A DNA stretch of 52,227 nucleotides from a virus (lineage: Duplodnaviria > Caudoviricetes), in the IMG/VR virus record IMGVR_UViG_3300044695_002763, positions 1-52,227 of that record, one strand, 5' to 3'. Of this stretch, positions 7,206-45,930 are shown piece after piece. The notes below the pieces were generated by a model, which saw only the letters and a program-made list of their open reading frames with translations, did no database searches and was not told where the DNA came from. A program made the translations under genes and the position numbers. Position 1 is the stretch's first letter, and each line of letters opens with the position of its first letter.

Positions 7206-7783
7206 GCGTACAACTAATAAACATATCCGAGCTAACGGTTAACCCGAATAACCCACGCATTATTAAGGACGAAAAATTCGATAAGCTGGTGCAATCGATT
7301 AAGGAGTTTCCCGATATGCTAAAATATCGTCCGATAGTTGTGGACGAGAACAACGTTATATTAGGCGGTAATATGCGTTTTAAGGCGTGCAAAGCTGCCA
7401 AGCTAAAGCAAGTGCCAGTTATGAAGGCAAGCGAGCTTACAGAGGCTCAAAAGCGCGAATTTATAATTAAGGATAACGTAAGCGGCGGCGAGTGGGATTG
7501 GGCGGTGCTTCAAAACGAATGGGACACCGAACAGCTCGATGCGTGGGGGGTGGATATACCCGACTTCGAAGATAACATGACAAACAACGAAGATTATGAA
7601 GGGTTAGACCAATTATCTAAATTAGATAAGTTTATGAATGCAGAATTAAAAAGAATGTTTTTGGTTTATGAAAACCAAACATTTGAAAAGGTTGTAAGGT
7701 GGTTTGAAGAAAAACAAACAAAATACAACTGCGAAGACAACAGCACGTTAATTTTAAAACTAATGGAAAATGAAAACATTTGA
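7202..7783 (+). CDS. ParB/Srx-like N-terminal domain protein
   Basis: NPNNPR.I, L..SI..F, RPIVVDEN..ILGGN.R motifs. Confidence 0.8.
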   Translation: MSVQLINISELTVNPNNPRIIKDEKFDKLVQSIKEFPDMLKYRPIVVDENNVILGGNMRFKACKAAKLKQVPVMKASELTEAQKREFIIKDNVSGGEWDWAVLQNEWDTEQLDAWGVDIPDFEDNMTNNEDYEGLDQLSKLDKFMNAELKRMFLVYENQTFEKVVRWFEEKQTKYNCEDNSTLILKLMENENI

Positions 7784-8600
7784 GCTTACTAAAATACGTG
7801 ATTGTAGCGAACTAATAAAACAAACGCCATCAAAAATCGGTTACAATACTTTAATTGATAGCGATACTATATTTACAAAAAACGGCAAAAACGTAGGGGT
7901 ATATATAAAAATAAAACACGAATTGATTAACGAAATAAGGAAGGCGGCTTTGGAAACAAAATATGTTAAAACATATAGAACTCGAAGGGCTTTACCTACT
8001 CAATCAAGTGTTTTTGGTTCGCTTCCAAGAATTCCATTAAGAAATGATTATTGTAGGTTTTCTTCACAAACAAAAAACGAAAAGAAAAATACTCAACGTT
8101 TATTTACATTTATGGAAGTGTTAACAGGCATATATAAAAAATACTTGCCCGAACAGTATAACCATGATTTAAAAGTAATAAGCGAAAATGTTAACCAAGA
8201 TTACCTATTAAAAGAAAACCAACCTTTTGCAACCGCAAACATTAATGTAAACCACGCTATAAAGTACCACAAAGATACGGGCAATTTTAGGGGAAACTTA
8301 TCAAATGTATTAATTTTAAAAAGTGGTATTAGCGGCGGGGAACTTGTTTTCCCTGAGTACGGTTTCGCGCTTGAACAAAGCGACAGCTATCTATCAATTT
8401 TTGACGGGCAAAACGAAATACACGGAGTAATGCCAATTGCCAAAACGGGCGAAAACCCATACCGCGCATCAATAGTGTATTACACTTTAGAAAACATGAA
8501 GCATTGTTACCCTTTTAAAATGGAAGTCGAAAGGCTGCAAAAAGTAGCCACTAAAAGAGCTGCAAATAGGGCAAGCAACAAAGACCCAAGGTCAAAATAA
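7770..8600 (+). CDS. 2OG-Fe(II) dioxygenase, TET/JBP-like
   Basis: HKD (HxD), GGELVFPEY, distal H in EIHGVMPI, R in YRASIVYY. Confidence 0.7.
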   Translation: MKTFELTKIRDCSELIKQTPSKIGYNTLIDSDTIFTKNGKNVGVYIKIKHELINEIRKAALETKYVKTYRTRRALPTQSSVFGSLPRIPLRNDYCRFSSQTKNEKKNTQRLFTFMEVLTGIYKKYLPEQYNHDLKVISENVNQDYLLKENQPFATANINVNHAIKYHKDTGNFRGNLSNVLILKSGISGGELVFPEYGFALEQSDSYLSIFDGQNEIHGVMPIAKTGENPYRASIVYYTLENMKHCYPFKMEVERLQKVATKRAANRASNKDPRSK

Positions 8601-8618
8601 TACAGCGAAAAAACAGCG

Positions 8619-8933
8619 ATGCCAAAGCCTGAGAACATAGAGCCACATAAATTTAAGAAAGGGCAAACGGGAAACCCTAACGGGAGACCGCGTAAGCTGC
8701 CCGAACTTGATAAGCTATTAGCCGATGTGTTAGGCGAGGAAAAGGACGGCGTAACAGCGGGCGAAGCGATATTAAAAGCAATACGCGCACGCGCCGCTAA
8801 AGGCGATGTAAGGGCTGCGGAGCTATTGTTAGACCGTGCATACGGTAAGCCGAAGCAAAGCATTGATAACACCATCACCACCACCGAGCCGCTTGTTATC
8901 ATTCGCACCGAACCGAGTAAACCAGCCGAATGA
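8619..8933 (+). CDS. terS: Terminase small subunit (putative)
   Basis: FKKGQTGNPNGRP and LLDRAYGKP motifs; immediately upstream of terL. Confidence 0.7.
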   Translation: MPKPENIEPHKFKKGQTGNPNGRPRKLPELDKLLADVLGEEKDGVTAGEAILKAIRARAAKGDVRAAELLLDRAYGKPKQSIDNTITTTEPLVIIRTEPSKPAE

Positions 8934-10246
8934 ATTTTACACTAACTGAAACACAAACCACAGCCTTCGACATGGCGACCAACGGGGACAAAAGAGTAAT
9001 TGTCTTCGGGGGCGCTATACGATAACCGCCCCCGCTCGAAAGTGTGGGGGCAAAGATTCGCGGCGGTAAAACGTATTGGCTTCTATTAACTCTAACATCA
9101 CTTTGTTTAACATATCCTCGCAGCCGTTGGGCGATTATTCGTAAAAGCCTACCCGATTTAAAGCGTACCACGTTCCCGAGCTTTGCCTCAATAATGATGG
9201 ACGGCGTAAGTAGTTACGTTAAGAATTGGAATAGGGAAACGAACGTTATAACTTTTACAAACGGTTCGGAGCTTATGTTTATGGCAGAATCGTTTGACGA
9301 CGATAAAGACCTTAACCGCTTTCGAGGTTTAGAGATTAACGGCGCGGGCTTAGACGAAGTAAACGAATTACAGGAAGTAACATTCTACAAAGTTCAGGAA
9401 CGTATAGGCTCGTGGAATAAGGCACATGGTAAACCGCCTATCGTTTGCCTCGCAACGTGCAACCCCGCTCAGAACTGGGTTAAGTCAATTATATACAACC
9501 GATACCGCGAAAACACATTGCCCGAACGTTGGGCTTACATACCGAGCCGAATAACGGATAATCCACACATCGCGCCCGAATACCTCGAAGCGCTAAAGGA
9601 ATTACCGCCTATTCAATATGCTCGATTCGTTGAGGGCGATTGGGACGTACTCGATGACGTTGCAAACCCGTTCTTATACGCTTGGAGCGACGAAAAGCAC
9701 ATCGACGATAGCGTAACACATAACGCACACTTACCGACGTTTATAAGCGTCGATTTCAACATTAACCCGTTATGTGCTTTGGTTATTCAAAACGTTGGCA
9801 GCACGGCTACGGTAGTGGATGAAATAAAGATTGAGCGCGGCTCTATAGATGCGTTCTGCGATGCGGTCGAAGCATTGAACATACCAATGGGCTTAATACG
9901 TATAACAGGCGACGCAATGGGCAAAGGCGGCACAATACAGGAGCGCGATAACTCGAGCGCATACATTCAGATTAAACGCCGCCTCAAGTTAGCCGATAAT
10001 CAAATAATAATACCAGCGAACCCGCGCCACGTTAACAGCCGTATTGATTGCAACACGGCACTAAAGAAACTCGATATTCGCGTAAATAGTAAAAACTGCA
10101 AAGGGTTCGTTTTCGATGCTAAGCAAGTACAATGCAACGCGGACGGGCAAATAATAAAGAGCAATAGAAAAAACATTACGGAGCGTGCCGACTTTTTAGA
10201 TTGTTTTCGTTACTTTGTAAACGCAATTCTAAAGCGATACCTATGA
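8930..10246 (+). CDS. terL: Terminase large subunit, interrupted by a 39-nt in-frame insert containing TAA (9023-9061)
   Basis: Colinear with intact terL of unit B (44653-45930); Walker A GAIR//GGKT, Walker B LDE, TCNP, nuclease VDFN. Confidence 0.85.
9023..9061 (+). other. Candidate translational bypass (coding-gap) element
   Basis: CGA|TAA...hairpin...ATT CGC|GGC; absent from unit B. Confidence 0.6.
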
Positions 10247-10596
10247 GCGTTTGTTCACCTTGCTTCGATTCAGGCATTCAAGTAGCTTACTGTAACGGCG
10301 GTATAGCGTTTGGATTTGTAGAACCCGAAACTAACTACACCATAACGCTAAAACACAACGCAACGAATAAGCTGCAAGTGTTTAACGCCGAATCCGATTT
10401 GGATGGGCTGCTAACCATTACGGGAGCGAAGATAGATAACGGGCAAGGCTACACGCTCGAGTTAGCAGGCTGCAATAAGTTTACGATTTGCGAAGTCGAA
10501 TACGATTGCATTAGCTTTAGCGTGGCTAACATTGAAATAATCAGCGAAGAACCCGAAGTAATTAACTTAATGGAATGCGTAGAATGCAACGGATAA
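10243..10596 (+). CDS. Hypothetical protein (beta-rich, Cys-containing)
   Basis: ATGA overlap with terL stop; conserved in B. Confidence 0.55.
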   Translation: MSVCSPCFDSGIQVAYCNGGIAFGFVEPETNYTITLKHNATNKLQVFNAESDLDGLLTITGAKIDNGQGYTLELAGCNKFTICEVEYDCISFSVANIEIISEEPEVINLMECVECNG

Positions 10597-34539: not shown

Positions 34540-34565
34540 TTTTTAACCCTTTAATACTTTTTAAA

Positions 34566-35240
34566 ATGGCTTTAACAGCACCCGTAGGCGGAACGGCAAA
34601 CCGCCAAATCGCACCCGAGGGTAGTTACCCTGCGCGCTGCTATCAAATTATCGACCTCGGTACGACCGAACAAGGCGGTATTTATGCAGGCAAAAAACGC
34701 AAAGTTCAATTCCTATTCGAACTGCCAACCGAGAAAGCGGTATTCGATGAAAGCAAAGGCGAACAGCCGTACTACGTTCGCAGCATTTACACGCTATCGA
34801 TGAACGAAAAGGCTTTATTACGTCGCGATGTTTCGGCATGGCTCGGCAAAAAGTTAACTGATTCTGAAGCCTCAAAGCTCGATATTTTTAAGATGCTTGG
34901 GAAAACGTGCATGGTAAATATTGCGCACGTTACCAAAGGTGAAAACACCTATGCAAACATTATAAGTTTTGCGCCGCTTATGAAAGGCTACGAATGCCCC
35001 GCACCGATTAACGAGGCGTTTACCTACACCCCGACCGCGCACGAACAAGAAGTATTCGCAAAACTGCCCGAGTTTTTACAGGATAAGATTAAGGAATCGG
35101 ACGAATACAAAGCAATGACAACGGCAAGTTTTAAAAACGATTTTACACCTAAAACGCAGCCACCTCAGAACTTTGAAGACCTACCCGACATCGACGATAT
35201 TTTCGGACAAAAGGCGGCTAATGACTTACCGTGGGATTAA
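34566..35240 (+). CDS. SSB-like protein (homolog of 27-701)
   Basis: Near-identical protein. Confidence 0.6.
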   Translation: MALTAPVGGTANRQIAPEGSYPARCYQIIDLGTTEQGGIYAGKKRKVQFLFELPTEKAVFDESKGEQPYYVRSIYTLSMNEKALLRRDVSAWLGKKLTDSEASKLDIFKMLGKTCMVNIAHVTKGENTYANIISFAPLMKGYECPAPINEAFTYTPTAHEQEVFAKLPEFLQDKIKESDEYKAMTTASFKNDFTPKTQPPQNFEDLPDIDDIFGQKAANDLPWD

Positions 35241-35294
35241 ATGATAAAGGGCGGCAAAGCGCCGCCCTCTAACTTACCAAATAAATAAACATAC

Positions 35295-35966
35295 ATGAAC
35301 ACACTTGCAAAGGTACAAATACCAATCGAAAAAATATACCACGCGATAAATTCGCCTCAAACGTTAAACGCGCAATCGATAGTAGCGCGTAACACGGGCG
35401 GCGGCGAAGCGCTCTCGATTCAAAACGTAAGCGAATATACAGCAATGAACGCCGCTGTAAAAGACGTAAGCGATGCGGTTAAGGCAATCGAAGCAGCCCG
35501 TAAAGAGGTAACCACACCGCTCGAGCATTTCAAAAAGGAACTTATTAAGCTCGAAAAGGATGCCACAGCGCCGCTACTCGATTTTATCGAAGATGCTAAA
35601 AAGCGAATGGTAGAATATCACGAACGCCTCGAAGCCGAACAAGAAGCCGCCGAAGCGAAGCTAATAGCCGAAGCTGCTCAAAGCATCAAAGAAGCCGAAG
35701 CGGTTAGCGATGTAATCGCAGCGTTTACCGATAAGCTCTATGCCACCACAGTAGAGAATAGCCAAACGAAAAACATACGCAGCACCATTAAGGCGCGCGT
35801 TAACGGAGAGGTTAACTGGGTAAAGGTGCTTTCGGTTCAATTCGCATTTAACAACTTAAAGCCCGAAGATTTACTAAACGGCTTAGCCAAAGCAATGAAG
35901 GATTTAGGCGTTGATAGCATCGAAGGCATTGAGCTTTACGAACACAAAACCCAAGTAATCCGATGA
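35295..35966 (+). CDS. Coiled-coil protein (homolog of 755-1426)
   Basis: Near-identical protein. Confidence 0.6.
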   Translation: MNTLAKVQIPIEKIYHAINSPQTLNAQSIVARNTGGGEALSIQNVSEYTAMNAAVKDVSDAVKAIEAARKEVTTPLEHFKKELIKLEKDATAPLLDFIEDAKKRMVEYHERLEAEQEAAEAKLIAEAAQSIKEAEAVSDVIAAFTDKLYATTVENSQTKNIRSTIKARVNGEVNWVKVLSVQFAFNNLKPEDLLNGLAKAMKDLGVDSIEGIELYEHKTQVIR

Positions 35967-36358
35967 ACAATTACACCAATACAATAACAAACATTAAACA
36001 CTTAAAACCTATGTACACTTTCACACAATTAACGCATAGTGAAATATGCGAACGAATCGAAACGGCACGCAAGCGCCACAAATTAACTAAAGCGGAGTTT
36101 AGCCGAATGGCTGGTTATACCTCATGCGCTCTAAACAAATGGCTAATTAATACAAGATTTAGCTCGGTATCTTATAACCGCGTAATGGATGTAATCAAAA
36201 AGCTCGATAATTCGCCCGAACAAATCGAAATTAAGTTTACCCCTAAGCCAGTTGAAAAGCAAACCTACGGCGTTTTAAGCATCGAAACTGCTATAAAAAT
36301 GCTAAAGGATGCAGGGTATAAGATTTCTAAACGAGTTGAAAAATGGGAGGAAATCTAA
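35963..36358 (+). CDS. XRE-type helix-turn-helix protein (unit B-specific)
   Basis: IETARKRHKLTKAEFSRMAGYTSCALNKW. Confidence 0.6.
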   Translation: MNNYTNTITNIKHLKPMYTFTQLTHSEICERIETARKRHKLTKAEFSRMAGYTSCALNKWLINTRFSSVSYNRVMDVIKKLDNSPEQIEIKFTPKPVEKQTYGVLSIETAIKMLKDAGYKISKRVEKWEEI

Positions 36359-36570
36359 TGCAAAACAAAATAACAGCCGTTGAATGGTTAGCCGTTCAAC
36401 TTGAAAAGTATTACGGAAATCAAAAAATTACAGATACCGAGGCGTTTATAACCGCCAAAGCAATGGAAGAACTGCAAATAATCGACGCGCACGATAGCGG
36501 ATACATTGACGGGCAAGGGCAAAAAAGTATATCAGCCGAACAATATTACACCGAAACCTATGGAGAATAG
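36358..36570 (+). CDS. KQTAV..AKAME..QIIDA-type protein
   Basis: C-terminal half matches 1815-2054. Confidence 0.6.
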   Translation: MQNKITAVEWLAVQLEKYYGNQKITDTEAFITAKAMEELQIIDAHDSGYIDGQGQKSISAEQYYTETYGE

Positions 36571-36769
36571 ACAAACAGCAGTTGAGTGGTATCATACAAA
36601 ATTAGCAGAGCCAACAACTCAAGCAAAAGATGTAAATACAATATTCCTATTAGCCAAAGCAATGGAGAAGGAGCAGATAGTTGATGCTTTTGATAATGGT
36701 GCTGAAGAATGGACACCGATTGAATATTCAGATGGGCAACATTACTACAATCACAATTTCGAATCATGA
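36560..36769 (+). CDS. Second KQTAV..AKAME..QIVDA-type protein
   Basis: MENRQTAVEWY...AKAMEKEQIVDAF. Confidence 0.6.
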   Translation: MENRQTAVEWYHTKLAEPTTQAKDVNTIFLLAKAMEKEQIVDAFDNGAEEWTPIEYSDGQHYYNHNFES

Positions 36770-37347
36770 CACGCGAAGAATACATTAAACATCCAGCCAT
36801 AAGCGCAAGCCGTATAAAACGATTTTACACGGGCGACATAAGTTACGCGCAAACTGCGTTAGATGCAGGCGCGGCGTTCCATTTCGATTTACTTGAGCAG
36901 CCTTATGAAAGTATGCCACCAAACACGCAAAACGTTTATAATGCGATTCACGCGGTCGAAATGTTAGGCGAACTATTCGATAAATCGCATCACGAATACA
37001 TTACCCTAAACACGGTAACCGTTGGCGGCATAACGGTCGAAGGTAAAGGAATGATGGATTTATGCTGGCTTGAGCGCGGTATAATTGCCGACGTTAAAAC
37101 AACAAGCGCAAAGAATATAAAAGCCTTCGCCGCTGATATGGTAGCGCATTGTAACCATGTGCAAGCGGTTTGGTATTCGCTTTTGATGGGCTTTGACCCT
37201 CGGCAGTTTTACTATATAGGAGTACCGCCAAAGGTTAAAAAGTCGGGTAAGTTTAGCGACTTGTATTTGTACCGCCATAACGAGGATGAAATCGCAAGCG
37301 CAACGGATTTAATAATTAACTATTTGAACCATGAAGGAACGCGTTAA
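36766..37347 (+). CDS. PD-(D/E)XK exonuclease (homolog of 2051-2632)
   Basis: Same motifs. Confidence 0.7.
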   Translation: MTREEYIKHPAISASRIKRFYTGDISYAQTALDAGAAFHFDLLEQPYESMPPNTQNVYNAIHAVEMLGELFDKSHHEYITLNTVTVGGITVEGKGMMDLCWLERGIIADVKTTSAKNIKAFAADMVAHCNHVQAVWYSLLMGFDPRQFYYIGVPPKVKKSGKFSDLYLYRHNEDEIASATDLIINYLNHEGTR

Positions 37348-37582
37348 ACAAACGAAATTTGATTACCTAAAGCTAATTAGCCAACTCGATAGGCTCATTA
37401 AATGGATGCCTGACACGGGTGTCGGGTATCAAAAAAAGTTAACCAAGTGCGCCGAGTTTTGGTGGCTGCATAAAGGAACCATACCAGCGAACACGATTGC
37501 AATACTTTTAAAAGTTGAAAGAACCGATTTAATAAACTTACTCAATGCGCAAATCATCGAAAGAGGCACTTACATACGCTAA
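37331..37582 (+). CDS. Hypothetical protein (homolog of 2616-2867)
   Basis: Homology to unit A. Confidence 0.55.
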   Translation: MKERVKQTKFDYLKLISQLDRLIKWMPDTGVGYQKKLTKCAEFWWLHKGTIPANTIAILLKVERTDLINLLNAQIIERGTYIR

Positions 37583-37808
37583 CGACCTCGGCGACCTAAC
37601 AGAGTTTATAGGACATACTTACAAAAACGTAGCTGCATATCTTTTATCTTGCGGCTTCGAATATTTAGAGTGCTGTTTTAAGTATCGTAAAGTTTTTAAC
37701 GACCACGAAAACAATCGAAGCATTTTAATAGACCTTTACGACGAAACAACCGAGCTAAAGGGGCGCGTTGAATACATGATAGTTTGTAATAGTATTTACA
37801 AACGATGA
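37545..37808 (+). CDS. Hypothetical protein (homolog of 2830-3093)
   Basis: Homology to unit A. Confidence 0.6.
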   Translation: MRKSSKEALTYANDLGDLTEFIGHTYKNVAAYLLSCGFEYLECCFKYRKVFNDHENNRSILIDLYDETTELKGRVEYMIVCNSIYKR

Positions 37809-38197
37809 AAAGCCGCCAGCCACGCGAAAGCGATATTTATTCAGCCATTGCACGTTACATGAGTTTAAAGCACCCCGAAATACTTTTTAGGTTTGACTTT
37901 AGCGCAGGAACTAAAATGAGCATGGGGCAAGCAAGGGTACATAAAAGCATGAACCCGCAAAGAGGTTACCCCGATTTATTTATCGCTGCGCCGCGTGGAA
38001 ACTTTAGCGGTTTATTCATTGAAATCAAAAAAGGCGATTTTAAGCCGTTTAAACGCGATGGAACGCTAAAGCAAGATGAACACCTTACCGAACAATTTGA
38101 AGTCCTTACGCGGCTTAAAAACGCAGGTTTTGAGGCTTTGTTTTGCTCGGGCTTAGATGAGTGCATTGAAACGATTGAAAAGTATTTGAATAAATAA
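37805..38197 (+). CDS. VRR-NUC nuclease
   Basis: GYPDLFI...FIEIK. Confidence 0.75.
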   Translation: MKSRQPRESDIYSAIARYMSLKHPEILFRFDFSAGTKMSMGQARVHKSMNPQRGYPDLFIAAPRGNFSGLFIEIKKGDFKPFKRDGTLKQDEHLTEQFEVLTRLKNAGFEALFCSGLDECIETIEKYLNK

Positions 38198-38214
38198 ATT
38201 TTGTAAATTTGAAA

Positions 38215-38327
38215 CGTTTAGAGGTGGAATCCTAAACGAAACGAAATTAACTTATCGCCCTTTGGGTTTACGAGGCAAGGTGTATCCGAGCCGATTCCAC
38301 CGTAAATTTCAAGGGGCTTTCTATTTT
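38215..38327 (+). ncRNA. Rep leader pseudoknot RNA, unit B variant
   Basis: Loop GGTGGAATC (38223-38231) pairs with GATTCCACC (38293-38301). Confidence 0.75.
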
Positions 38328-38954
38328 ATGAAAAAATCGTTTGTACTTTATACGGATAACTGGGTAACATTAAAGCACCTTTCTAATGAGCAACTCGGAG
38401 AATTAATGCGAATGCTTTTTGAATATCAAATCGAAGGTGCAACGCCTGAACCGTCAAACCCTCTATTTATTGCTTTCGGGTTTATTCGCTCCGCTATGGA
38501 TAGAGATTTAGAAAAATGGAACGAACGAGCTGAACGTGCGAGGGTTAATGGTTTAAAAGGTGGACGACCAAAAGAAAACCAAGATGGTTTACAAGAAACC
38601 CAAAAAACCCAGTCGGTTAAATCAAAACCCAAAAAACCTGTTAATGTAAGTGTAAGTGTTAATGATAGTGTAAGTGTTAATGTAAATGCAAATGCTAACG
38701 CTAACTTTAAAAAGTGGAGCGAGCAAGATTTGATTGAAGCTATGACACCTTACAAGGATAGATACCCTAAAGAACTTTTAAACGCTTTCTTTAACTATTG
38801 GACTGAGCCGCTCGCAAACGGTAAAATACGTTTGACCTCTCAAGACGCTTGGGATACTGGTCGAAGGTTGGTAACATGGAATAAACGCGACACCGATAAA
38901 CAACCTAAAAACTCAACAGTAACACGCGCCTCGATGGGGCTAAAGATGCAATGA
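38328..38954 (+). CDS. Replication initiator (DUF6291-like N-terminus, different C-terminal domain)
   Basis: MKKSFVLYTD; C-terminal FFNYWTE...WD..RRL.TW. Confidence 0.7.
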   Translation: MKKSFVLYTDNWVTLKHLSNEQLGELMRMLFEYQIEGATPEPSNPLFIAFGFIRSAMDRDLEKWNERAERARVNGLKGGRPKENQDGLQETQKTQSVKSKPKKPVNVSVSVNDSVSVNVNANANANFKKWSEQDLIEAMTPYKDRYPKELLNAFFNYWTEPLANGKIRLTSQDAWDTGRRLVTWNKRDTDKQPKNSTVTRASMGLKMQ

Positions 38955-38985
38955 CAAAAATATTTTTAAAATAATTTAGAAAAAG

Positions 38986-39016
38986 TTTGCAGAATCAAAA
39001 AAGAGTTGTATGTTTG
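38986..39016 (+). promoter_or_regulatory. Early promoter
   Basis: TTTG-N19-TATGTTTG. Confidence 0.75.
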
Positions 39017-39044
39017 CCTCATCAAACTCTTAAACACTTACACA

Positions 39045-39251
39045 ATGACAACTTCAATTTTAACTACAAAACTTCGCAACGGTGTAACAGTATTAGCAAA
39101 AGCTGATAGGTATGGCATAAACGCCGTAGGTTACTCAAACCTAACACAAGCTAACGCACGTCAAATTAAACTTTCTTTAGAGGGTATTGATTGCTCGGTA
39201 TATCGCACACCATGTAATATGTCGGTAACCTACATTAAAATAAATAACTAA
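39045..39251 (+). CDS. Small early protein (homolog of 4394-4600)
   Basis: Identical protein. Confidence 0.6.
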   Translation: MTTSILTTKLRNGVTVLAKADRYGINAVGYSNLTQANARQIKLSLEGIDCSVYRTPCNMSVTYIKINN

Positions 39252-39306
39252 TCAAAACGGGCGGTTAACAGCCGCCCAACTTTTTAAATCTTTAATATTT
39301 TATACT

Positions 39307-39498
39307 ATGGAACGCAAAACAGTCAAAACAGAATTTGAAATAACAACAACATCAGAGGGTAAAATATTTGCAAAAGTTGGCGATATAATAATTATTTCAA
39401 ACCGCGATTCAGAGCATTACAATGTACATAAAGTGAATGATACTAAAATATTTTCGCGGTGGATGCGTAAAGGATGGATTAACGCAAAATGTAACTAA
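39307..39498 (+). CDS. Hypothetical protein (unit B-specific slot)
   Basis: Replaces 4655-4798; follows hairpin 39259-39277. Confidence 0.55.
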   Translation: MERKTVKTEFEITTTSEGKIFAKVGDIIIISNRDSEHYNVHKVNDTKIFSRWMRKGWINAKCN

Positions 39499-40884
39499 AT
39501 GAAACCACTACCAAAAATCGAGCAGGCTTTAATATTCCTTTGCCTAAACGCGGACGAAAATTATAAAGAGATAATGCCGCAACTCGGAGAACACTTATTT
39601 CAAGATGCCACCGCCCTAAGTTGTTTTAAGCTCATTAAGACAATCATAAAAGACGAAAAGCAACCGACGCTCCTAACCATTGCCCAATATAACAAAACCG
39701 AAAAAAGCCTAACGCCGCAAAACATTTCGGAGCTTGCAAGCTGGGGCAATGAGTTATCGTATAACGAACCCGTTAACGATTACATCGCAATTCTAAAAGA
39801 CGAACACATTAAACGCTCAGTTAGTTCAATACTTACCGAGCAAGCGTTAGGAATTGGAACCATGCGCAGCGGCATTGAAACCGCAACCGAAATAATAAAA
39901 CGCCTTAACTCTTTAATCGAGGACGGTAGCCCGACCGATAATATCATAAACATGGCTCAACTATCCGACGAAGAACGGCAAGCATATTACCGCCGCGCCG
40001 CTTTGTTTCAGTCGGGTAAAACGAGCGGATTAAACACGGGCTTAAGCGCCTTAAATCGTTTTACGGGTGGCTTTCATCCCGAACTAATAATCTTAGCGGG
40101 TCGCCCGTCGATGGGTAAAACCGCCCTCGCACTATTTCACGCGGTGCAATTTGGCGAGGCGGGTGTTTATTTTAACCTCGAAATGAATCGAAGCCAGTTA
40201 GCGCAGCGCCTTATTTTACAGCACGGCGAAAGCCTAATTAATAGCGCACGCCTTCGCGATGGTAACCTAACACAACCCGAACTACACGCGTTCGAGCAAT
40301 CGATAGGTAAAACAGAAAAGTTACCTATTTTGATTTACGATAAGGCTCGATGCGGCGTTCATGAAGCCGTTAGGATATTGCGCCGAGAGGTTCGTAAAAA
40401 TCATTGTAAGTGGGCTATAATCGATTATTTGCAGTTAATGACGATAGAAGGCTTTAAAGGCGGTAATCGCGAAGCTGAGGTAGCTGAGATAAGCCGCACA
40501 TTAAAAGCCGCGCAAAAGGAACTAAATATACCGATTATCGCACTTGCGCAATTGAGCAGACAAGTTGAACAACGCGCCGATAAAAGACCGATACTTTCAG
40601 ACCTTCGCGAGTCGGGTAGCATCGAACAGGATGCCGATACCGTTATGTTCGTTTGGCGACCTTCATACTATGCGCTTAATGAGGATAACGGCACGCCATA
40701 TACAAACGACGTTTTTTACTTATTCGAGAAACATCGGCAAGGCTCAACGGGCGAGGTAAGGTTTAAGCACAATGAAACGCTAACCCACTTTACAGATAAC
40801 GGCGGCAATACGGGTAGCACCTTTTTACCAGTTAAGGAAACGGCAATACTACCTAACGAAACATTTGATTTTACACCGTTTTGA
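39499..40884 (+). CDS. dnaB: DnaB helicase
   Basis: Same motifs as unit A. Confidence 0.95.
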   Translation: MKPLPKIEQALIFLCLNADENYKEIMPQLGEHLFQDATALSCFKLIKTIIKDEKQPTLLTIAQYNKTEKSLTPQNISELASWGNELSYNEPVNDYIAILKDEHIKRSVSSILTEQALGIGTMRSGIETATEIIKRLNSLIEDGSPTDNIINMAQLSDEERQAYYRRAALFQSGKTSGLNTGLSALNRFTGGFHPELIILAGRPSMGKTALALFHAVQFGEAGVYFNLEMNRSQLAQRLILQHGESLINSARLRDGNLTQPELHAFEQSIGKTEKLPILIYDKARCGVHEAVRILRREVRKNHCKWAIIDYLQLMTIEGFKGGNREAEVAEISRTLKAAQKELNIPIIALAQLSRQVEQRADKRPILSDLRESGSIEQDADTVMFVWRPSYYALNEDNGTPYTNDVFYLFEKHRQGSTGEVRFKHNETLTHFTDNGGNTGSTFLPVKETAILPNETFDFTPF

Positions 40885-40895
40885 TTTTTAATTTT

Positions 40896-41756
40896 ATGAA
40901 TGTACTGAGTTTATTTGATGGCATGAGTTGTGGGCAAATCGCACTTAATAATTTAGGTTTTAAAATCGAAAATTATTTTGCAAGTGAGATAAAAAAACAC
41001 GCTATACAATGCACTTTAGATAATTTCCCAAATACTAAACATATTGGGGATGTAACAAAAGTAAAAGGTGTTGATTTGCCTAAAATTGATTTATTAATAG
41101 GTGGTAGCCCATGTCAAGATTTTAGTAGGGCAAATAGTGTAAGAGACGGGTTAAAAGGAATGAAATCAATGTTGTTTTATGAATATATAAGATTGCTTGA
41201 GGAAACAAAACCTACTTACTATTTACTTGAAAACGTAATTATGGACGATTTAGGATATAATACAATAAGCGATTTATTAGGAACTGAGCCAGTAAGATTA
41301 TGCGGTAGCAGAGTAAGCGGAGCATTAAGAGATAGATTATTTTGGACTAATATAGGGCCTGAGTATAGGGATTTATTTGGCAACAGAAAGAGCGCGATAC
41401 CACAACCAAAAGATAAAAAGATAATGTTAAACGATATATTAGAATATGGTTATTCAGATAAGAAAAAACATACTTGTTTAAATACAAGTTGTGGGCGAGA
41501 TGCAAATCAAAGATATATGTTGCATAGATATGCAACGACAGGAATGACAACCATAATTTATACAGATAAAACAATGGACGAAAAAAAGGGGGTACGGTAT
41601 TGCACACAAACAGAGATTGAAAGATTGCATAATATACCCGAAGGATATACACGAAACTTAAATAAAGCACAAGCTGGCAACTTAATTGGTGATGGGTGGA
41701 CTGTTGGAATAGTTGAACATATCTTTTCTTTTTTGAATGGTTTTGAAAAAAAATAA
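40896..41756 (+). CDS. DNA cytosine-C5 methyltransferase (unit B-specific)
   Basis: LSLFDG (motif I), GGSPCQ (IV), ENV (VI), IGDGW (X). Confidence 0.85.
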   Translation: MNVLSLFDGMSCGQIALNNLGFKIENYFASEIKKHAIQCTLDNFPNTKHIGDVTKVKGVDLPKIDLLIGGSPCQDFSRANSVRDGLKGMKSMLFYEYIRLLEETKPTYYLLENVIMDDLGYNTISDLLGTEPVRLCGSRVSGALRDRLFWTNIGPEYRDLFGNRKSAIPQPKDKKIMLNDILEYGYSDKKKHTCLNTSCGRDANQRYMLHRYATTGMTTIIYTDKTMDEKKGVRYCTQTEIERLHNIPEGYTRNLNKAQAGNLIGDGWTVGIVEHIFSFLNGFEKK

Positions 41757-41770
41757 ATTTTGTTTAAAAC

Positions 41771-42010
41771 ATGACCACCGAAGAACGAATAATAGATTAC
41801 ATGACAAACTATGAACCCGAGCAAGGCGAATTTAAAGAGGGCGTTACGCATTACACCGATACCCTTAAAACGCATCGAAGCTATGCAGCGCAATTAACGA
41901 GCGCGCCGCGCACCTCGATAGCCTACCGATTGTATTTAAACCGCTCGCTCGATTGGTTGAAGCTGCTAAAAAAACACGGCATTAATTTGCAAAACGTAAT
42001 CAAAAAATGA
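41771..42010 (+). CDS. Hypothetical protein (homolog of 6213-6452)
   Basis: Homology to unit A. Confidence 0.6.
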   Translation: MTTEERIIDYMTNYEPEQGEFKEGVTHYTDTLKTHRSYAAQLTSAPRTSIAYRLYLNRSLDWLKLLKKHGINLQNVIKK

Positions 42011-42024
42011 GTATATTTGCAGCA

Positions 42025-42234
42025 ATGGAAGCAACACCGAAACCGATTTCGAAGCGTGGCGGTCGCCGTGAGGGTGCTGGTAGGTCGAAGCAATACGGCG
42101 AACAAACCTCGACGTTATGCTTTCGCGTACCGCAAACGCACCGCGAAAAGATTACCTCAATGGTTCGCGCATACCTCGAAGGATTAAAGCTCGAATACAA
42201 ATCAAAGAAACACGACCCCGAGTATGGATGCTAA
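42025..42234 (+). CDS. RGGxRxGAGR small DNA-binding protein
   Basis: Homology to unit A. Confidence 0.55.
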   Translation: MEATPKPISKRGGRREGAGRSKQYGEQTSTLCFRVPQTHREKITSMVRAYLEGLKLEYKSKKHDPEYGC

Positions 42235-42607
42235 ACTATTAACCATACCGTGTGCGATTGAATCAGTAGCCACACGCCGCGATAAAACGATTAAGGTAAC
42301 AATCGGAACGCAGGAACTAACACCCGAACAAACGAGCGCGCTATTTAATCAATGGATGGGTGGCGTAGGTGTTATGGCATTTAAAGGCGAACAATTCAAT
42401 TACAACGATGAACAGCTTTTAAATAATCTTAAACTCGATGCCGCCGAACTTGGAAGCAAAACACCGAGCCAGCGCCTACGCGCTACCCTGTACGTTCTAT
42501 TCGAACACGCGCCCGAAGGTCATAAGGATTTCAACAGCTTTTACGCGGCAATGATGGAGCGCTTTATTGAAATGGTTAAGAAACGAATCGACACTTATAA
42601 TTTGTAA
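42224..42607 (+). CDS. Hypothetical protein (homolog of 6666-7049)
   Basis: Homology to unit A. Confidence 0.6.
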   Translation: MDAKLLTIPCAIESVATRRDKTIKVTIGTQELTPEQTSALFNQWMGGVGVMAFKGEQFNYNDEQLLNNLKLDAAELGSKTPSQRLRATLYVLFEHAPEGHKDFNSFYAAMMERFIEMVKKRIDTYNL

Positions 42608-42619
42608 ATTTGTAATACT

Positions 42620-42763
42620 ATGCCACTATTTAACGGCGACACGCCCGAAGTAATACAGATGAACATTCGCAAGCTAATAGGCGAAGGTTACTCAAACGAG
42701 CAAGCGATAGCGATAGCATACGCGGAGGCTGAGAAATACCGCAAAGCAAGAAACAAGAAATGA
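42620..42763 (+). CDS. 47-aa basic protein (homolog of 7062-7205)
   Basis: Frame conserved. Confidence 0.65.
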   Translation: MPLFNGDTPEVIQMNIRKLIGEGYSNEQAIAIAYAEAEKYRKARNKK

Positions 42764-44323: not shown

Positions 44324-44341
44324 TACAGCGAAAAAACAGCG

Positions 44342-44656
44342 ATGCCAAAGCCAGAAAACATAGAGCCACATAAATTCAAGAAAGGGCAAACGGGAAACCC
44401 TAACGGGCGACCCCGCAAGCTGCCCGAACTTGATAAGCTGTTAGCCGATGTATTAGGCGAAGAAAAGGACGGCGTAACTGCGGGCGAAGCGATATTGAAA
44501 GCAATTCGCGCACGCGCAGCTAAAGGCGATGTAAGGGCTGCGGAATTATTATTAGACCGTGCCTATGGTAAACCGAAGCAAAGCATTGACAATAATATAA
44601 CAACAACTGAGCCGCTTGTTATCATACGCACCGAACCGAGCAAACCGAATGAATGA
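44342..44656 (+). CDS. terS: Terminase small subunit (putative)
   Basis: Homolog of 8619-8933. Confidence 0.7.
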   Translation: MPKPENIEPHKFKKGQTGNPNGRPRKLPELDKLLADVLGEEKDGVTAGEAILKAIRARAAKGDVRAAELLLDRAYGKPKQSIDNNITTTEPLVIIRTEPSKPNE

Positions 44657-45930
44657 ATTTTACGCTAACCGAAACACAAACGACCGCGTTCGATTACGCC
44701 GTTAATGGCAGTAAACGCGTTATTGTTTTCGGGGGCGCGATTCGAGGCGGCAAAACGTATTGGCTTCTATTAACTCTAACATCGCTTTGTTTAACATACC
44801 CGCGTTCGAGGTGGGCGATTATTCGTAAAAGCCTACCCGATTTAAAGCGTACCACTTTCCCGAGCTTTGCCTCAATAATGATGGACGGGGTAAGTAGTTA
44901 CGTTAAGAACTGGAATAGGGAAACGAACGTTATCACTTTTACAAACGGCTCGGAGCTTATCTTCATGGCTGAAAGTTTCGACGACGATAAAGACCTTAAC
45001 CGCTTTAGAGGTTTAGAGATTAACGGCGCGGGCTTAGATGAAGTAAACGAATTGCAGGAAGTAACATTCTACAAAGTTCAGGAACGTATAGGCAGTTGGA
45101 ATAAAGCGCATGGTAAGCCGCCTATCGTTTGCCTCGCAACGTGCAACCCCGCTCAAAACTGGGTTAAGTCGATTATTTACAACCGTTACCGCGAAAACAC
45201 ATTACCCGAGCGTTGGGCGTACATACCGAGCCGAATAACCGATAACCCACACATCGCGCCCGAATACTTAGATGCACTAAAAGAATTGCCGCCTATTCAA
45301 TACGCCCGTTTCGTTGAGGGCGACTGGGATGTATTAGACGACGTTGCTAACCCGTTCTTATACGCTTGGAGCGACGAAAAGCACATCGACGATAGTGTAA
45401 CGCACAACGCGCATTTACCTACGTTTATAAGCGTCGATTTCAACATTAACCCGTTATGCGCTTTGGTTATTCAAAACGTTGGCAGCTCGGCTATGGTAGT
45501 GGATGAAATAAAGATAGAGCGCGGCTCGATAGATGCGTTCTGCGATGCGGTCGAAGCATTGAACATACCAACGGGCTTAATACGCATAACAGGCGACGCA
45601 ATGGGCAAAGGTGGTACAATACAGGAACGCGATAACTCGAGCGCTTACATTCAGATTAAACGCCGCCTTAAGTTAGCCGATAACCAAATAATTATACCAG
45701 CGAACCCGCGACACGTTAACAGCCGTATCGATTGCAATACCGCGCTCAAGAAACTCGATATACGCGTTAATAGTAAAAATTGCAAAGGCTTTGTTTTCGA
45801 TGCTAAGCAAGTGCAATGCAACGCGGACGGGCAAATAATAAAAAGCAATCGAAAAAACATTTCTGAGCGTGCTGACTTTTTAGATTGTTTTCGTTACTTT
45901 GTGAACGCAATTCTAAAGCGATACTTATGA
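44653..45930 (+). CDS. terL: Terminase large subunit (intact)
   Basis: GAIRGGKT Walker A, LDE Walker B, nuclease domain. Confidence 0.9.
   Translation: MNFTLTETQTTAFDYAVNGSKRVIVFGGAIRGGKTYWLLLTLTSLCLTYPRSRWAIIRKSLPDLKRTTFPSFASIMMDGVSSYVKNWNRETNVITFTNGSELIFMAESFDDDKDLNRFRGLEINGAGLDEVNELQEVTFYKVQERIGSWNKAHGKPPIVCLATCNPAQNWVKSIIYNRYRENTLPERWAYIPSRITDNPHIAPEYLDALKELPPIQYARFVEGDWDVLDDVANPFLYAWSDEKHIDDSVTHNAHLPTFISVDFNINPLCALVIQNVGSSAMVVDEIKIERGSIDAFCDAVEALNIPTGLIRITGDAMGKGGTIQERDNSSAYIQIKRRLKLADNQIIIPANPRHVNSRIDCNTALKKLDIRVNSKNCKGFVFDAKQVQCNADGQIIKSNRKNISERADFLDCFRYFVNAILKRYL

What the first reader, a model, noticed from the sequence alone, without database searches (positions are those of the whole stretch)
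8930..9064. 39-nt stop-containing insert in the terminase Walker A motif with the layout of a programmed ribosomal bypass
Seen: unit B reads ...FGGAIR-GGKT. Unit A reads ...GGG GGC GCT ATA CGA | TAA CCG CCC CCG CTC GAA AGT GTG GGG GCA AAG ATT CGC | GGC GGT AAA ACG. Removing 9023-9061 restores the exact motif. An Arg codon (CGA, 9020-22) is followed immediately by a stop, and Ile-Arg is repeated at the far end (CGC, 9059-61); CGA and CGC are normally read by the same ICG tRNA. Two mutually exclusive hairpins are possible: CGGGGGCG(9007-14)/CGCCCCCG(9027-34), which encloses the take-off and stop codons, and GCCCCCGC(9028-35)/GTGGGGGC(9044-51), capped by a C-GAAA-G loop. The upstream 31 codons are ATGA-coupled to terS and keep 28/31 residues with many synonymous changes, and the downstream gene is undecayed, so this essential gene does not look dead. 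Known precedents for take-off/stop/hairpin/matched-landing are T4 gene 60 and the byps of Magnusiomyces mitochondria. Inference: a compact hop element that may throttle TerL level or gate packaging. Alternatives are a micro-intron, stop readthrough, or a split protein restarting at GTG 9044.
Basis: partly seen in the sequence, partly recalled or inferred. Interest (0 to 1): 0.92.

Follow-up and report, generated by a model that had tools for sequence, protein, structure and literature searches.

The report
Homing-endonuclease-linked ribosome-hop cassette in terminase
A 39-41-base hairpin-containing insert that breaks the ATP-binding motif of a lake phage's essential DNA-packaging gene is real, conserved, and travels with a homing endonuclease gene, so it looks like an independent counterpart of the ribosome-hopping cassette of phage T4 gene 60.

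Summary
Unit A's terL carries a 39-nt stop-containing insert (9023-9061) between Arg31 and the GGKT of Walker A; unit B lacks it. The insert is not an assembly error. Logan contigs of 4 lake-water runs hold it, and 57 further contigs carry a homologous 39-, 40- or 41-nt insert at the same site.

All 58 read ATA CGA before the gap and CGA/CGC/CGT as its last codon. All have a frame-0 stop inside the gap. All have a 9-10-bp GNRA-capped hairpin that covaries and is rich in G-U pairs.

The 40- and 41-nt lengths exclude readthrough. 33 of 58 have no start codon for a restart. Five complete insert-bearing genomes have no second terL. terL remains under strong purifying selection (dN/dS 0.03).

New here: 29 of 56 assessable insert-bearing loci have a NUMOD4-HNH homing endonuclease gene abutting terL, against 0 of 51 insert-less loci. 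The first 29 codons co-segregate with the insert, while the gene body is mosaic.

Best reading (about 0.68): a mobile endonuclease-plus-bypass cassette, convergent with T4 MobA/gene 60. The hop itself is inferred, not shown.

The parts
8619..8933 (+). terS (small terminase, DUF5681), overlapping terL by ATGA
   Evidence: ORF list; PF18932, E 1.2e-17
8930..9022 (+). terL 5' segment, codons 1-31, ending in ATA CGA (Ile30, Arg31 = proposed take-off codon at 9020-9022). It carries the D-M-A signature found in 58 of 58 insert alleles.
9023..9061 (+). 39-nt coding gap. It holds the frame-0 stop TAA (9023-25), the spacer UAACC, the hairpin, the A/U-rich spacer AAAGAUU, and the landing codon CGC (9059-61).
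   Evidence: alignment with unit B; homologous gaps of 39, 40 and 41 nt in 57 other contigs
9028..9051 (+). Hairpin GCCCCCGCUC-GAAA-GUGUGGGGGC (10 bp with one U-U mismatch, GNRA tetraloop)
   Evidence: Fold -19.2 kcal/mol for 9020-9064, z -2.39. Covariation: 93.8% of cells paired, 5 of 10 pairs changed on both sides, 0 of 500 shuffles reach it.
9059..9061 (+). Proposed landing codon CGC (CGA, CGC or CGT across relatives)
   Evidence: CGA 26, CGT 19, CGC 13 of 58
9062..10246 (+). terL 3' segment, from GGC GGT AAA ACG (GGKT of Walker A) to the stop: 394 codons
   Evidence: ORF 9044-10246; PF03237; dN/dS 0.03 among insert-bearing alleles
44653..45930 (+). Unit B terL, uninterrupted allele (425 aa), used as comparator

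Best explanation
The 39-nt insert is the coding gap of a mobile cassette that has invaded terL of a group of lake-water phages.

The full cassette has three parts:
- a NUMOD4-HNH homing endonuclease gene wedged between terS and terL, whose 3' end overlaps the terL start;
- the first 31 codons of terL in a cassette-specific version (Asp-Met-Ala at residues 14-16, ending ATA CGA);
- a 39-41-nt non-coding gap.

Unit A of the window has the last two parts and has lost the endonuclease gene.

Inferred function: the endonuclease cuts uninterrupted terL alleles of co-infecting relatives in or near the very conserved Walker-A-coding DNA, and repair copies the cassette in. The gap breaks up that sequence in the carrier, so the carrier is not cut.

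Inferred decoding:
1. With peptidyl-tRNA-Arg (anticodon ICG) on CGA in the P site, decoding of the next codon is poor. That codon is a stop in 17 of 58 alleles; otherwise it is TGG, TGT or GGT with a stop 1 or 7 codons on.
2. A GC-rich GNRA hairpin starts 5-6 nt downstream.
3. The weak I-A wobble pair lets go and the ribosome slides over the hairpin.
4. The same tRNA re-pairs with the CGA, CGC or CGU that lies 7-10 nt beyond the stem, after an A/U-rich spacer.
5. Translation resumes at GGN GGN AAR, giving the normal P-loop GAIR-GGKT and a 425-aa TerL.

Shown here: the insert, its conservation, the hairpin, the matched codons, the endonuclease link, the cassette-like inheritance and the selection on terL.

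Inferred only: the cleavage target, the immunity role, the tRNA identity and the hop itself.
For: 1. The insert is real and widespread. 26 of 79 terL relatives that cover the site carry it. A pattern that fixes only the flanks and leaves the take-off codon and the gap free finds 45 IMG/VR contigs (41 dataset prefixes by my count of the listing) and 18 JGI contigs, 6 of which I dropped as duplicates by equal contig length. The total is 57 contigs plus unit A. Contigs of 4 lake-water runs bridge the gap.

2. Matched codons. In 58 of 58 the codons before the gap are ATA CGA, and the last gap codon is CGA (26), CGT (19) or CGC (13). In 53 insert-less alleles the same Arg codon is CGA 23, CGT 19, CGC 8, AGA 2, AGG 1, and the Ile codon is ATT 32, ATA 21. 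Neighbouring codons 27-29 vary synonymously among insert alleles, and median dS over their codons 1-31 is 0.49. The invariance of ATA CGA is therefore a constraint.

3. No other decoding works for all alleles.
- Gap lengths are 39 (21), 40 (1) and 41 (36), and 58 of 58 have a frame-0 stop within the gap.
- 33 of 58 have no ATG, GTG or TTG in the landing frame upstream of GGKT.
- 28 of 58 have a stop codon immediately 5' of the landing codon.
- A hop from ATA to ATT fits only the 39-nt form.

4. Hairpin. On 34 distinct sequences, 93.8% of cells pair and 5 of 10 pairs change on both sides. The covariation score is 0.448 against 0.188 in shuffles (0 of 500 reach it), and slid partners give 38-58% paired. 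The loop is GAAA in 52 and GCAA in 6, both GNRA. By my sum of the table, 58 of 340 cells are G-U or U-G. These would be A-C mismatches on the other strand, so the structure belongs to the sense RNA.

5. The first CGH triplet after the loop is the landing codon in 55 of 58.

6. The gene is in use.
- With the gap removed, 28 of the 30 full-length genes among the first 36 insert alleles are open to codon 425 or 426.
- dN/dS for codons 32-425 is 0.032 within the monophyletic 39-nt clade (dS 0.45) and 0.036 over all insert alleles, against 0.044 for insert-less alleles.
- Five insert-bearing genomes rated 97-100% complete, one with terminal repeats, hold only this one terL.

7. Endonuclease link. 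The ORF between terS and terL has NUMOD4 (E 1e-11), HNH_3 (E 7e-9) and a weak HTH_7 match. It is present directly upstream in 29 of 58 insert alleles, absent in 27, and not assessable in 2. It is found in 0 of 53 insert-less loci, 51 of which have at least 600 nt upstream.

8. Cassette inheritance. On a tree of codons 1-29 the insert state needs 2 changes. On a tree of the 600 nt after the gap it needs 19, at least 10 of them forced by well-supported branches (104 rows, 52 with the insert and 52 without). D-M-A at residues 14-16 occurs in 58 of 58 insert alleles; the Met15 codon occurs in 0 of 53 insert-less alleles.

9. Precedent. The T4 gene 60 gap belongs to the MobA endonuclease cassette. 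Its relatives show wobble-matched take-off and landing codons, a stop or rare codon after take-off, stem-loops with UUCG or GNRA loops, an A/U-rich 3' gap, and frequent loss of the endonuclease with retention of the gap (bioRxiv 10.1101/2022.08.31.505936, sections 10 and 11 read).
Against: - No RNA or protein evidence exists. No RNA run holds the stretch, so splicing is not excluded and no junction peptide is known.
- In 41 of 58 alleles the codon after CGA is a sense codon (TGG 37, GGT 3, TGT 1) rather than a stop. I did not measure how rare these codons are in the unknown host.
- Unlike T4, the conserved hairpin does not contain the take-off codon. The pairing that would enclose it has no covariation support.
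- 3 of 58 alleles have a cognate CGA inside the 3' arm of the stem, before the landing codon.
- Take-off is at codon 31, so the nascent chain barely fills the exit tunnel. The D-M-A signature may be mere linkage to the cassette rather than a nascent-peptide signal.
- The phage's genes show no Shine-Dalgarno motifs, so the mini-SD that helps landing in T4 may have no counterpart here.
- In longer contexts the fold is not better than shuffles. The window 72-nt stretch gives z -0.78, with 50 of 200 shuffles as good; L030 gives z -0.86.
- The endonuclease's target and the host's tRNA-Arg are unknown.
- 2 of the 30 full-length insert alleles checked have premature stops (L064, L114).
- Many contigs may come from related lakes or time series, so they are not fully independent.
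Confidence: 0.68

Rival explanations
1. RNA-level removal. The 39-41 nt are cut out of the mRNA and the ends joined, by an unknown self-catalysed or enzyme-catalysed reaction that recognises the GNRA hairpin. This would be a micro-intron, so the ribosome would read a continuous message.
For: - The element is an RNA-level structure. It covaries and is rich in G-U pairs on the sense strand.
- Homing endonuclease genes elsewhere are usually tolerated through introns or inteins (recalled general knowledge).
- No RNA data exclude it.
- Variable gap length (39, 40, 41 nt) is as compatible with splicing as with hopping.
Against: - 39-41 nt is far below the size of group I or II introns, and Rfam gives no match at E up to 1 on 8600-9500.
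- By reading, no bulge-helix-bulge or paired-loop layout lies at the junctions.
- Unit A has no RNA ligase or RtcB-like gene among the 38 ORFs scanned with Pfam and no tRNA gene.
- Splicing gives no reason for a repeated Arg codon at both borders, one invariant (CGA, 58 of 58) and the other varying only at the wobble position among bases read by one tRNA.
Confidence: 0.1
2. Dead allele kept by drive. The insert inactivates terL. Carriers are selfish or defective genomes that survive because the endonuclease cassette spreads by homing, and because co-infecting insert-less relatives supply TerL in trans.
For: - Insert-less alleles co-occur in the same runs (loose end at 9055 in X1; joints 8923 to 9055 in X3 and X4).
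- Both alleles lie in the same record (unit B).
- The cassette shows clear signs of horizontal spread.
- 2 of the 30 full-length insert alleles checked have premature stops.
Against: - dN/dS is 0.032 at dS 0.45 within a well-supported all-insert clade. 28 of 30 genes are open.
- A dead gene would not keep the take-off and landing codons, the frame relation and a covarying hairpin through 34 distinct variants.
- 27 carriers have lost the endonuclease gene and so have no drive, yet they keep an intact terL body.
- Complete carrier genomes have no second terL.
Confidence: 0.08
3. Split protein. The 31-residue N-terminal peptide and a C-terminal protein, restarted inside the gap (GTG 9044 in the window), are made separately and assemble.
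For: - In the window, GTG 9044 opens a 400-aa frame whose start MGAKIRGGKT recreates an [AG]xxxxGKT motif.
- 25 of 58 alleles have some ATG, GTG or TTG in the landing frame.
- Endonuclease insertions that split T4-like genes into two working proteins are described.
Against: - 33 of 58 alleles have no canonical start in the landing frame. In 28 of 58 a stop codon directly precedes the landing codon, so nothing upstream of CGN GGN GGN AAR can be part of a restarted protein.
- GTG is GCG in L009, L015 and L067.
- The strand that precedes the P-loop (VIVFGG) would be on a separate 31-aa peptide.
Confidence: 0.04
4. DNA-level excision. The insert is removed from a fraction of genomes during infection, by a precise deletion or switch, and only those genomes express TerL.
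For: Short imperfect direct repeats flank the gap (ATACGA and ATTCGC in the window).
Against: - No contig with unit A's flanks lacks the gap. The insert-less pieces seen in the runs carry unit-B-type flanks. Contigs do drop rare variants, so this is weak.
- The 41-nt forms have only CGA repeated.
- Excision would not require a sense-strand RNA hairpin with G-U pairs.
Confidence: 0.03

Closest known systems
Phage T4 gene 60 coding gap with the MobA homing endonuclease cassette, and its relatives in Straboviridae-type phages (bioRxiv 10.1101/2022.08.31.505936, sections 10-11 read; T4 record AF158101)
   Same: - A non-coding gap of tens of nucleotides sits inside a highly conserved motif of an essential enzyme gene.
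- Take-off and landing codons are matched, or differ only at a wobble base read by one tRNA.
- A stop or another codon follows take-off, with in-frame stops in the gap.
- A stable tetraloop hairpin is present (GNRA loops occur in some gene 60 relatives).
[quoted passage not shown]
- There is physical linkage to an HNH-family homing endonuclease gene, frequent loss of that gene with retention of the gap, patchy distribution, and a cassette-specific N-terminal coding segment upstream of the gap.
- By eye, T4 reads GAGATTATT before its landing GGA, and the 41-nt forms here read AAGATTAT before CGA.
   Different: - The gene differs (terL P-loop, not topoisomerase II Toprim).
- The take-off codon differs (Arg CGA, not Gly or Asp codons).
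- The gap is 39-41 nt, not 50.
- The conserved hairpin starts 5-6 nt after the take-off codon instead of containing it.
- Take-off is at codon 31, not 46.
- The endonuclease gene lies upstream of the whole gene and does not split it into two genes.
- The genome lacks Shine-Dalgarno motifs.
- No sequence similarity was seen between this endonuclease and the T4 gp60.1 product annotated between mobA and gene 60 (BLASTP E 22). That is a poor test, because mobA is annotated as a pseudogene in T4.
- The hop here is not demonstrated.
Streptomyces phage Hau3 terminase, candidate bypass of two 10-nt blocks that begin with the rare codon UUA (PMC10732093, passages read)
   Same: A proposed translational bypass inside a phage large terminase gene; the inserts are absent from relatives; conserved protein sequence lies across the junction.
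   Different: - The Hau3 blocks are 10 nt long and are thought to be triggered by a tRNA-limited UUA codon, with a proposed lysis-lysogeny role.
- The passages read mention no endonuclease link.
- They occur at different positions in the gene, and only 3 of 100 genes had them.
- The gap here is 39-41 nt with a covarying hairpin, and the take-off codon is not rare at this site.
byp elements of Magnusiomyces mitochondria
   Same: Short inserts (27-55 nt as I recall) with matched take-off and landing codons that are skipped by the ribosome.
   Different: Byps occur many times in many genes and are thought to derive from dispersed mobile GC clusters (recalled). Here all 110 hairpin instances in 1.44 Mb of held loci lie at the one terL site, and there is one copy in the window.
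Free-standing HNH homing endonucleases of phages with NUMOD4 and HNH_3 domains
   Same: The ORF upstream of terL in 29 carriers has NUMOD4, HNH_3 and a weak C-terminal HTH match. It lies next to a conserved essential gene, and its neighbourhood shows marker co-conversion.
   Different: Ordinary free-standing endonuclease genes protect their own genome by point differences in the target (recalled). Here a non-coding gap accompanies the endonuclease gene.

Membership tests
Programmed translational bypassing, gene-60-like (functional class) | Take-off and landing codons readable by the same peptidyl-tRNA | tested here: met
   CGA before the gap in 58 of 58. The last gap codon is CGA 26, CGT 19, CGC 13. 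That one tRNA-Arg(ICG) reads all three is established bacterial knowledge, not tested for the unknown host.
Programmed translational bypassing, gene-60-like (functional class) | Stop or poorly decoded codon in the A site at take-off | tested here: inconclusive
   The next codon is TAA or TAG in 17 of 58. It is TGG, TGT or GGT in 41 of 58, with a stop 1 or 7 codons later. All 58 stop within the gap. Host codon usage is unknown.
Programmed translational bypassing, gene-60-like (functional class) | Conserved stable mRNA stem-loop in the gap | tested here: met
   A 9-10 bp stem with a GNRA loop: 93.8% paired, 5 of 10 pairs with double changes, 0 of 500 shuffles reach it. It does not include the take-off codon.
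Programmed translational bypassing, gene-60-like (functional class) | Nascent-peptide signal upstream of take-off | tested here: inconclusive
   D-M-A at residues 14-16 in 58 of 58 carriers; the Met15 codon in 0 of 53 non-carriers. This is confounded by linkage to the cassette.
Programmed translational bypassing, gene-60-like (functional class) | Shine-Dalgarno-like element a few nt 5' of the landing codon | tested here: inconclusive
   The G-run of the 3' arm ends 7-10 nt before the landing codon, followed by an A/U-rich spacer. None of 36 gene starts read shows an SD motif.
Programmed translational bypassing, gene-60-like (functional class) | A single polypeptide made across the gap | not testable with these tools
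   No RNA or protein data; no RNA run holds the stretch.
T4 MobA/gene 60 cassette (homologous family) | Insertion in the topoisomerase II large-subunit gene with a MobA-type endonuclease | tested here: not met
   The host gene is terL (PF03237). No similarity to T4 gp60.1 (E 22).
Magnusiomyces-type byp elements | Many dispersed copies in several genes | tested here: not met
   One copy in the window. 110 of 110 hairpin instances in the held loci lie at the terL site.
Group I or group II intron, or other known RNA family | Match to a curated covariance model, and adequate size | tested here: not met
   No Rfam match at E up to 1 in 8600-9500. The element is 39-41 nt.
Intein or in-frame protein insert, or stop-codon readthrough | Insert length a multiple of three and an open frame | tested here: not met
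   37 of 58 inserts are 40 or 41 nt. All 58 have a frame-0 stop in the gap.
HNH homing endonuclease (the ORF upstream of terL in relatives; absent from the window) | NUMOD4 and HNH_3 domains above Pfam's gathering scores | tested here: met
   L013, L057 and L030: NUMOD4 42.5-45.4 bits (cut-off 23.4) and HNH_3 34.9-37.3 bits (cut-off 24.8). Cleavage activity was not tested.
Large terminase, Terminase_6N type | Pfam match, with the Walker A GxxxxGKT at the insert site | tested here: met
   PF03237, E 9.9e-10 for unit B and 4.2e-9 for the unit A 3' segment. The motif GAIRGGKT is read.

The most novel reading that the evidence does not exclude
The gap is not hopped over but removed from the mRNA. 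It would be a 39-41-nt micro-intron defined by a GNRA hairpin and carried by a homing-endonuclease cassette, and so a kind of RNA splicing not known in bacteria or their viruses.

A second bold reading, within the best explanation: ribosome hopping has evolved at least twice as the way homing-endonuclease cassettes make a target-breaking insert harmless. Here it would work without Shine-Dalgarno pairing, with the refolded hairpin taking the positioning role.
Probability: 0.1. Interest if true: 0.95.

Novelty: new variant of a known kind. Interest (0 to 1): 0.88.

Why it matters
Long-range programmed bypassing has rested on one experimentally dissected case, T4 gene 60, and its homologues. The other cases are mitochondrial byps and a weakly supported 10-nt case in a Streptomyces phage terminase. 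The authors of the comparative gene 60 study still call the cassette unique.

An independent cassette would show that the hop is a recurrent evolutionary solution and not a T4 oddity. This one differs in four respects: the gene, the take-off codon, the position of the hairpin, and a host range that probably lacks Shine-Dalgarno use.

It comes with 34 natural sequence variants, including compensatory stem changes, three landing codons, three gap lengths and five A-site codons. Together these form a ready-made mutational series for testing which features a ribosome needs to take off, slide and land.

It also gives a testable model for how a homing endonuclease can target the most conserved DNA of an essential gene, the P-loop, without killing its carrier.

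For annotation, such terL genes are currently called as two ORFs or as pseudogenes.

Tried and rejected
Searches that found nothing:
- BLASTN of 8600-10300 against GenBank phages gave no match.
- terL relatives in 185,579 prokaryote genomes: none confirmed, so there is no host or prophage lead.
- PDB sequence search with TerL gave no match at E up to 0.01.
- Rfam gave no match.
- No terminator-like site lies in 8400-9600, so the hairpin is not an intrinsic terminator.
- The window has no tRNA genes.
- No RNA holder is listed for the stretch, so expression and splicing could not be examined.

Ideas considered and dropped:
It is present in the window, but 0 pairs change on both sides, shuffles equal the observed values, and the G-run is GGT GGT in several clades.
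- Outer helix joining the take-off and landing regions. It is predicted for L057 but not conserved in the TAA-CGA forms (read). I did not count it formally.
- Dispersed repeat or MITE. There is a single copy in the window, and all 110 instances in 1.44 Mb of loci are at terL.
- A hop from ATA to ATT. It fits only the 39-nt forms.
- Frameshifting plus translation of the gap. A stop directly precedes the landing codon in 28 of 58.
- Alternative genetic code. The window's genes are open under table 11, and the 40- and 41-nt gaps rule it out.
- A second terL copy in carriers: none in 5 complete genomes.
- Similar hairpins downstream of 59 more distant homologues of the endonuclease (L165-L223): none with at least 8 bp and a GNRA loop within 900 nt.
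- An endonuclease, RNA ligase or RtcB in unit A: none among the 38 ORFs scanned with Pfam, 36 of at least 120 aa and two smaller. Most ORFs under 120 aa were not scanned.

Literature. Six full-text searches found no report of a bypass-like gap in a terL Walker A or of an endonuclease-linked gap outside gene 60. Subscription journals are mostly not in that library, and supplements were closed.

Rows dropped before counts:
- L076 does not reach the site.
- L062 lacks the gene start.
- L081-L115 were collapsed onto L004-L079 where the contig name was the same.
- Six JGI contigs (L118, L119, L123, L127, L132, L133) were treated as duplicates of IMG/VR contigs because length and sequence context agreed.
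- 14 of the 94 matches were never shown.
Full report
**What the window is.** The record is a 52,227-base virus contig that holds one and a half genomes. Unit A (1-34539) is followed by unit B (34540-52227), a mosaic relative that is 78-97% identical in blocks with some cassettes exchanged. Both units have terS (DUF5681) followed by terL (PF03237). No tRNA genes are present. None of 36 gene starts I read has a Shine-Dalgarno motif. This suggests, but does not show, a host such as Bacteroidota.

**The observation.** Unit A reads GCT ATA CGA, then 39 nt that begin with TAA and end with ATT CGC, then GGC GGT AAA ACG. Unit B reads GCG ATT CGA GGC GGC AAA ACG. The alignment has a single 39-column gap. 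Unit A's frame stops after 31 codons. A 400-codon frame is open from GTG 9044. With the gap removed in silico, the gene is open for 425 codons, as in unit B.

**Is it real?**
- Logan contigs of four lake-water runs cover 9023-9061 without gaps. Three have no differences, and the X2 contig has 5 other letters over 700 bases. In the same runs, pieces of an insert-less allele with unit-B-type flanks also occur.
- Among 80 IMG/VR loci found with unit B's TerL, 79 cover the site and 26 carry an insert at exactly this place: 16 of 39 nt, 1 of 40 nt and 9 of 41 nt.
- A DNA pattern that fixes only the coding flanks, and leaves the last base of the Ile codon, the Arg codon and the gap free, returned 45 IMG/VR contigs and 18 JGI contigs. 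After removing duplicates I have 57 contigs plus unit A, 58 in all.

**Anatomy across the 58.**
- The two codons before the gap are ATA CGA in 58 of 58.
- Gap length is 39 (21), 40 (1) or 41 (36).
- The last three bases of the gap are CGA (26), CGT (19) or CGC (13), followed by GGN GGN AAR.
- The codon after CGA is TGG (37), TAA (16), GGT (3), TAG (1) or TGT (1).
- A frame-0 stop lies within the gap in 58 of 58: at once in 17, after one codon in 7, after seven codons in 34.
- The centre of the gap is a hairpin, CCCC-N5-GNRA-N5-GGGG (GGGA in one allele), with the loop GAAA in 52 and GCAA in 6.
- The hairpin is preceded by a variable 6-nt spacer and followed by an A/U-rich spacer such as AAAGAUU, AAAGAUUAU or AAAUAAUAA. 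All length variation sits in this 3' spacer.

In insert-less alleles (n = 53), the Ile codon is ATT 32 and ATA 21. The Arg codon is CGA 23, CGT 19, CGC 8, AGA 2, AGG 1. Among insert alleles, codons 27-29 vary synonymously and median dS over codons 1-31 is 0.49. The fixed ATA CGA is therefore a constraint and not just shared ancestry.

**The hairpin is a selected RNA structure.** On 34 distinct sequences, 93.8% of cells pair and 5 of 10 pairs change on both sides. Examples are the closing pair (A-U 22, G-C 7, C-G 4, G-U 1) and the pair at columns 30/41 (U-A 16, G-U 11, C-G 5). The covariation score is 0.448 against 0.188 in shuffles (0 of 500 reach it). Sliding the partner by 1-3 columns gives 38-58% paired (the first 17 sequences gave the same picture). 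By my sum of that table, 58 of 340 cells are G-U or U-G, so the helix belongs to the sense-strand RNA.

Thermodynamically the window's 45-nt core folds at -19.2 kcal/mol (z -2.39), and L057's 74 nt at -29.8 (z -3.96). In other, longer contexts the z-scores are weak: -0.78, -0.86 and -1.87.

It is impossible where the Gly codons are GGT GGT.

**What the gap cannot be.**
- Readthrough or a protein insert: 37 of 58 gaps are not multiples of three, and all contain a frame-0 stop.
- Restart: 33 of 58 have no ATG, GTG or TTG in the landing frame. In 28 of 58 a stop codon directly precedes the landing codon, so the open landing frame begins with that very codon.
- Frameshifting: ruled out by the same stops.
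- Known RNA families: none.
- Terminator: none.
- Dispersed repeat: no.
- Pseudogene: 28 of the 30 full-length carrier genes checked among the first 36 alleles are open after removal of the gap. dN/dS for codons 32-425 is 0.032 within the well-supported all-insert clade (dS 0.45), against 0.044 among insert-less alleles. Codons 1-31 give 0.11 in both sets.
- A second terL: five carrier genomes rated 97-100% complete have only this one.

**The new element: a homing endonuclease.** In L013, L030, L057 and L061 an extra ORF of 178-196 codons lies between terS and terL and overlaps the first 20 nt of terL. It has NUMOD4 and HNH_3 domains above Pfam's thresholds and a weak C-terminal HTH match.
- It is present directly upstream of terL in 29 of 58 carriers, absent in 27 (unit A among them) and not assessable in 2.
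- It was found in none of 53 insert-less loci, 51 of which have at least 600 nt upstream.
- Its close homologues (66% identity or more) all lie in carrier contigs, plus one contig that ends before terL.

**Cassette inheritance.**
- All 58 carriers have Asp-Met-Ala at residues 14-16. None of 53 non-carriers has the Met15 codon.
- On a tree of codons 1-29 the insert state needs 2 changes. On a tree of the 600 nt after the gap it needs 19, at least 10 of them forced by well-supported branches. A whole-gene tree needs 5.
- In L057 the first 90 nt or so resemble carriers of other clades (82-87% identity) more than its own insert-less clade-mates (67-76%). The reverse holds downstream of the gap.

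Thus the endonuclease gene, the 5' end of terL and the gap move together into diverse terL backgrounds, with the right-hand junction at or just after the gap. This is the signature of homing with co-conversion.

**Interpretation.** This is the layout described for T4 gene 60 and the MobA cassette. There, a homing endonuclease comes with a coding gap that disrupts the conserved target and is bypassed by the ribosome. The endonuclease is often lost while the gap stays (T4 annotation). The shared sequence-level features are listed under Closest known systems.

I therefore read the window's insert as the coding gap of an independent, endonuclease-linked bypass cassette from which unit A has lost the endonuclease gene. 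The decoding model that fits all 58 alleles is a take-off of peptidyl-tRNA-Arg from CGA and a landing on the CGH at the end of the gap. The first CGH after the hairpin loop is that codon in 55 of 58. The three exceptions have a CGA buried in the 3' arm.

That CGA pairs weakly through I-A wobble, that the hairpin sits at the mRNA entrance when CGA is in the P site, and that it refolds behind the ribosome are inferences from general knowledge of ribosomes and of gene 60. They are not results.

**What weakens it.**
- There is no RNA or protein evidence, so splicing is not excluded.
- Most alleles have a sense codon after take-off.
- The hairpin does not include the take-off codon.
- Take-off is early, at codon 31.
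- Shine-Dalgarno help is unlikely.
- The endonuclease's target is unknown.
- The contigs are from lake metagenomes that may be related.

**Comparison and novelty.**
- It works like gene 60 but is not a member of that family. The host gene, the codon and the hairpin position differ. There is no similarity to T4's gp60.1, the product annotated between mobA and gene 60.
- It differs from the Hau3 terminase candidate, which has 10-nt blocks triggered by UUA.
- It differs from mitochondrial byps, which are dispersed.

Six literature searches found no description of it.

I rate it a new variant of a known kind, of high interest, with the hop at about two in three. The endonuclease-linked mobile cassette as such is much more certain.

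Noticed in passing
window 1-34539 and 34540-52227: The record is one and a half genomes: a complete unit A followed by a partial, mosaic unit B (blocks of 78-97% identity, some segments replaced). This is either a chimeric assembly of two co-occurring strains wrapped around a circular or terminally redundant genome, or a mixed concatemer. Both terL alleles also co-occur in the same sequencing runs.
   Followed up: partly
window 7770-8600 versus 43292-44323 and 40881-41756: Upstream of terS, unit A has a Tet/JBP-type 2OG-Fe dioxygenase (PF12851, E 1.6e-19). Unit B has a C-5 cytosine DNA methyltransferase (PF00145, E 5e-47) at that place and a second methyltransferase-like ORF that unit A lacks. 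The two strains have exchanged a DNA-modification module.
   Followed up: no
L064 and L114 (terL after removal of the gap): Two insert-bearing terL genes have premature stops, at codons 268 and 229. These may be sequencing errors or genuinely decayed copies.
   Followed up: no
L008, L120, L122, L138, L142 (ORF upstream of terL): The endonuclease at the same position is only about 55% identical to the L013 type in these contigs. The cassette therefore carries deeply diverged, or exchanged, endonuclease genes. Four of them (L120, L122, L138, L142) have the GCAA loop; L008 has the GAAA loop.
   Followed up: no
L060, L063, L064, L070, L085, L086 and others, 3 nt before the landing codon: In 28 of 58 alleles a stop codon, in the landing frame, directly precedes the landing codon (in the alleles listed it is TAA). 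Whether this helps landing, or only stops ribosomes that are in that frame, is open.
   Followed up: partly
L224 (T4) 2803-2852 versus alignment A3: T4 reads GAGATTATT before its landing GGA, and the 41-nt forms here read AAGATTAT before CGA. The resemblance was noticed by eye and its significance was not tested.
   Followed up: no
window, 36 gene starts: Upstream regions are A-rich and lack AGGAGG-like motifs, which hints at a host with Shine-Dalgarno-independent initiation. No host was identified; there was no match in 185,579 prokaryote genomes.
   Followed up: partly
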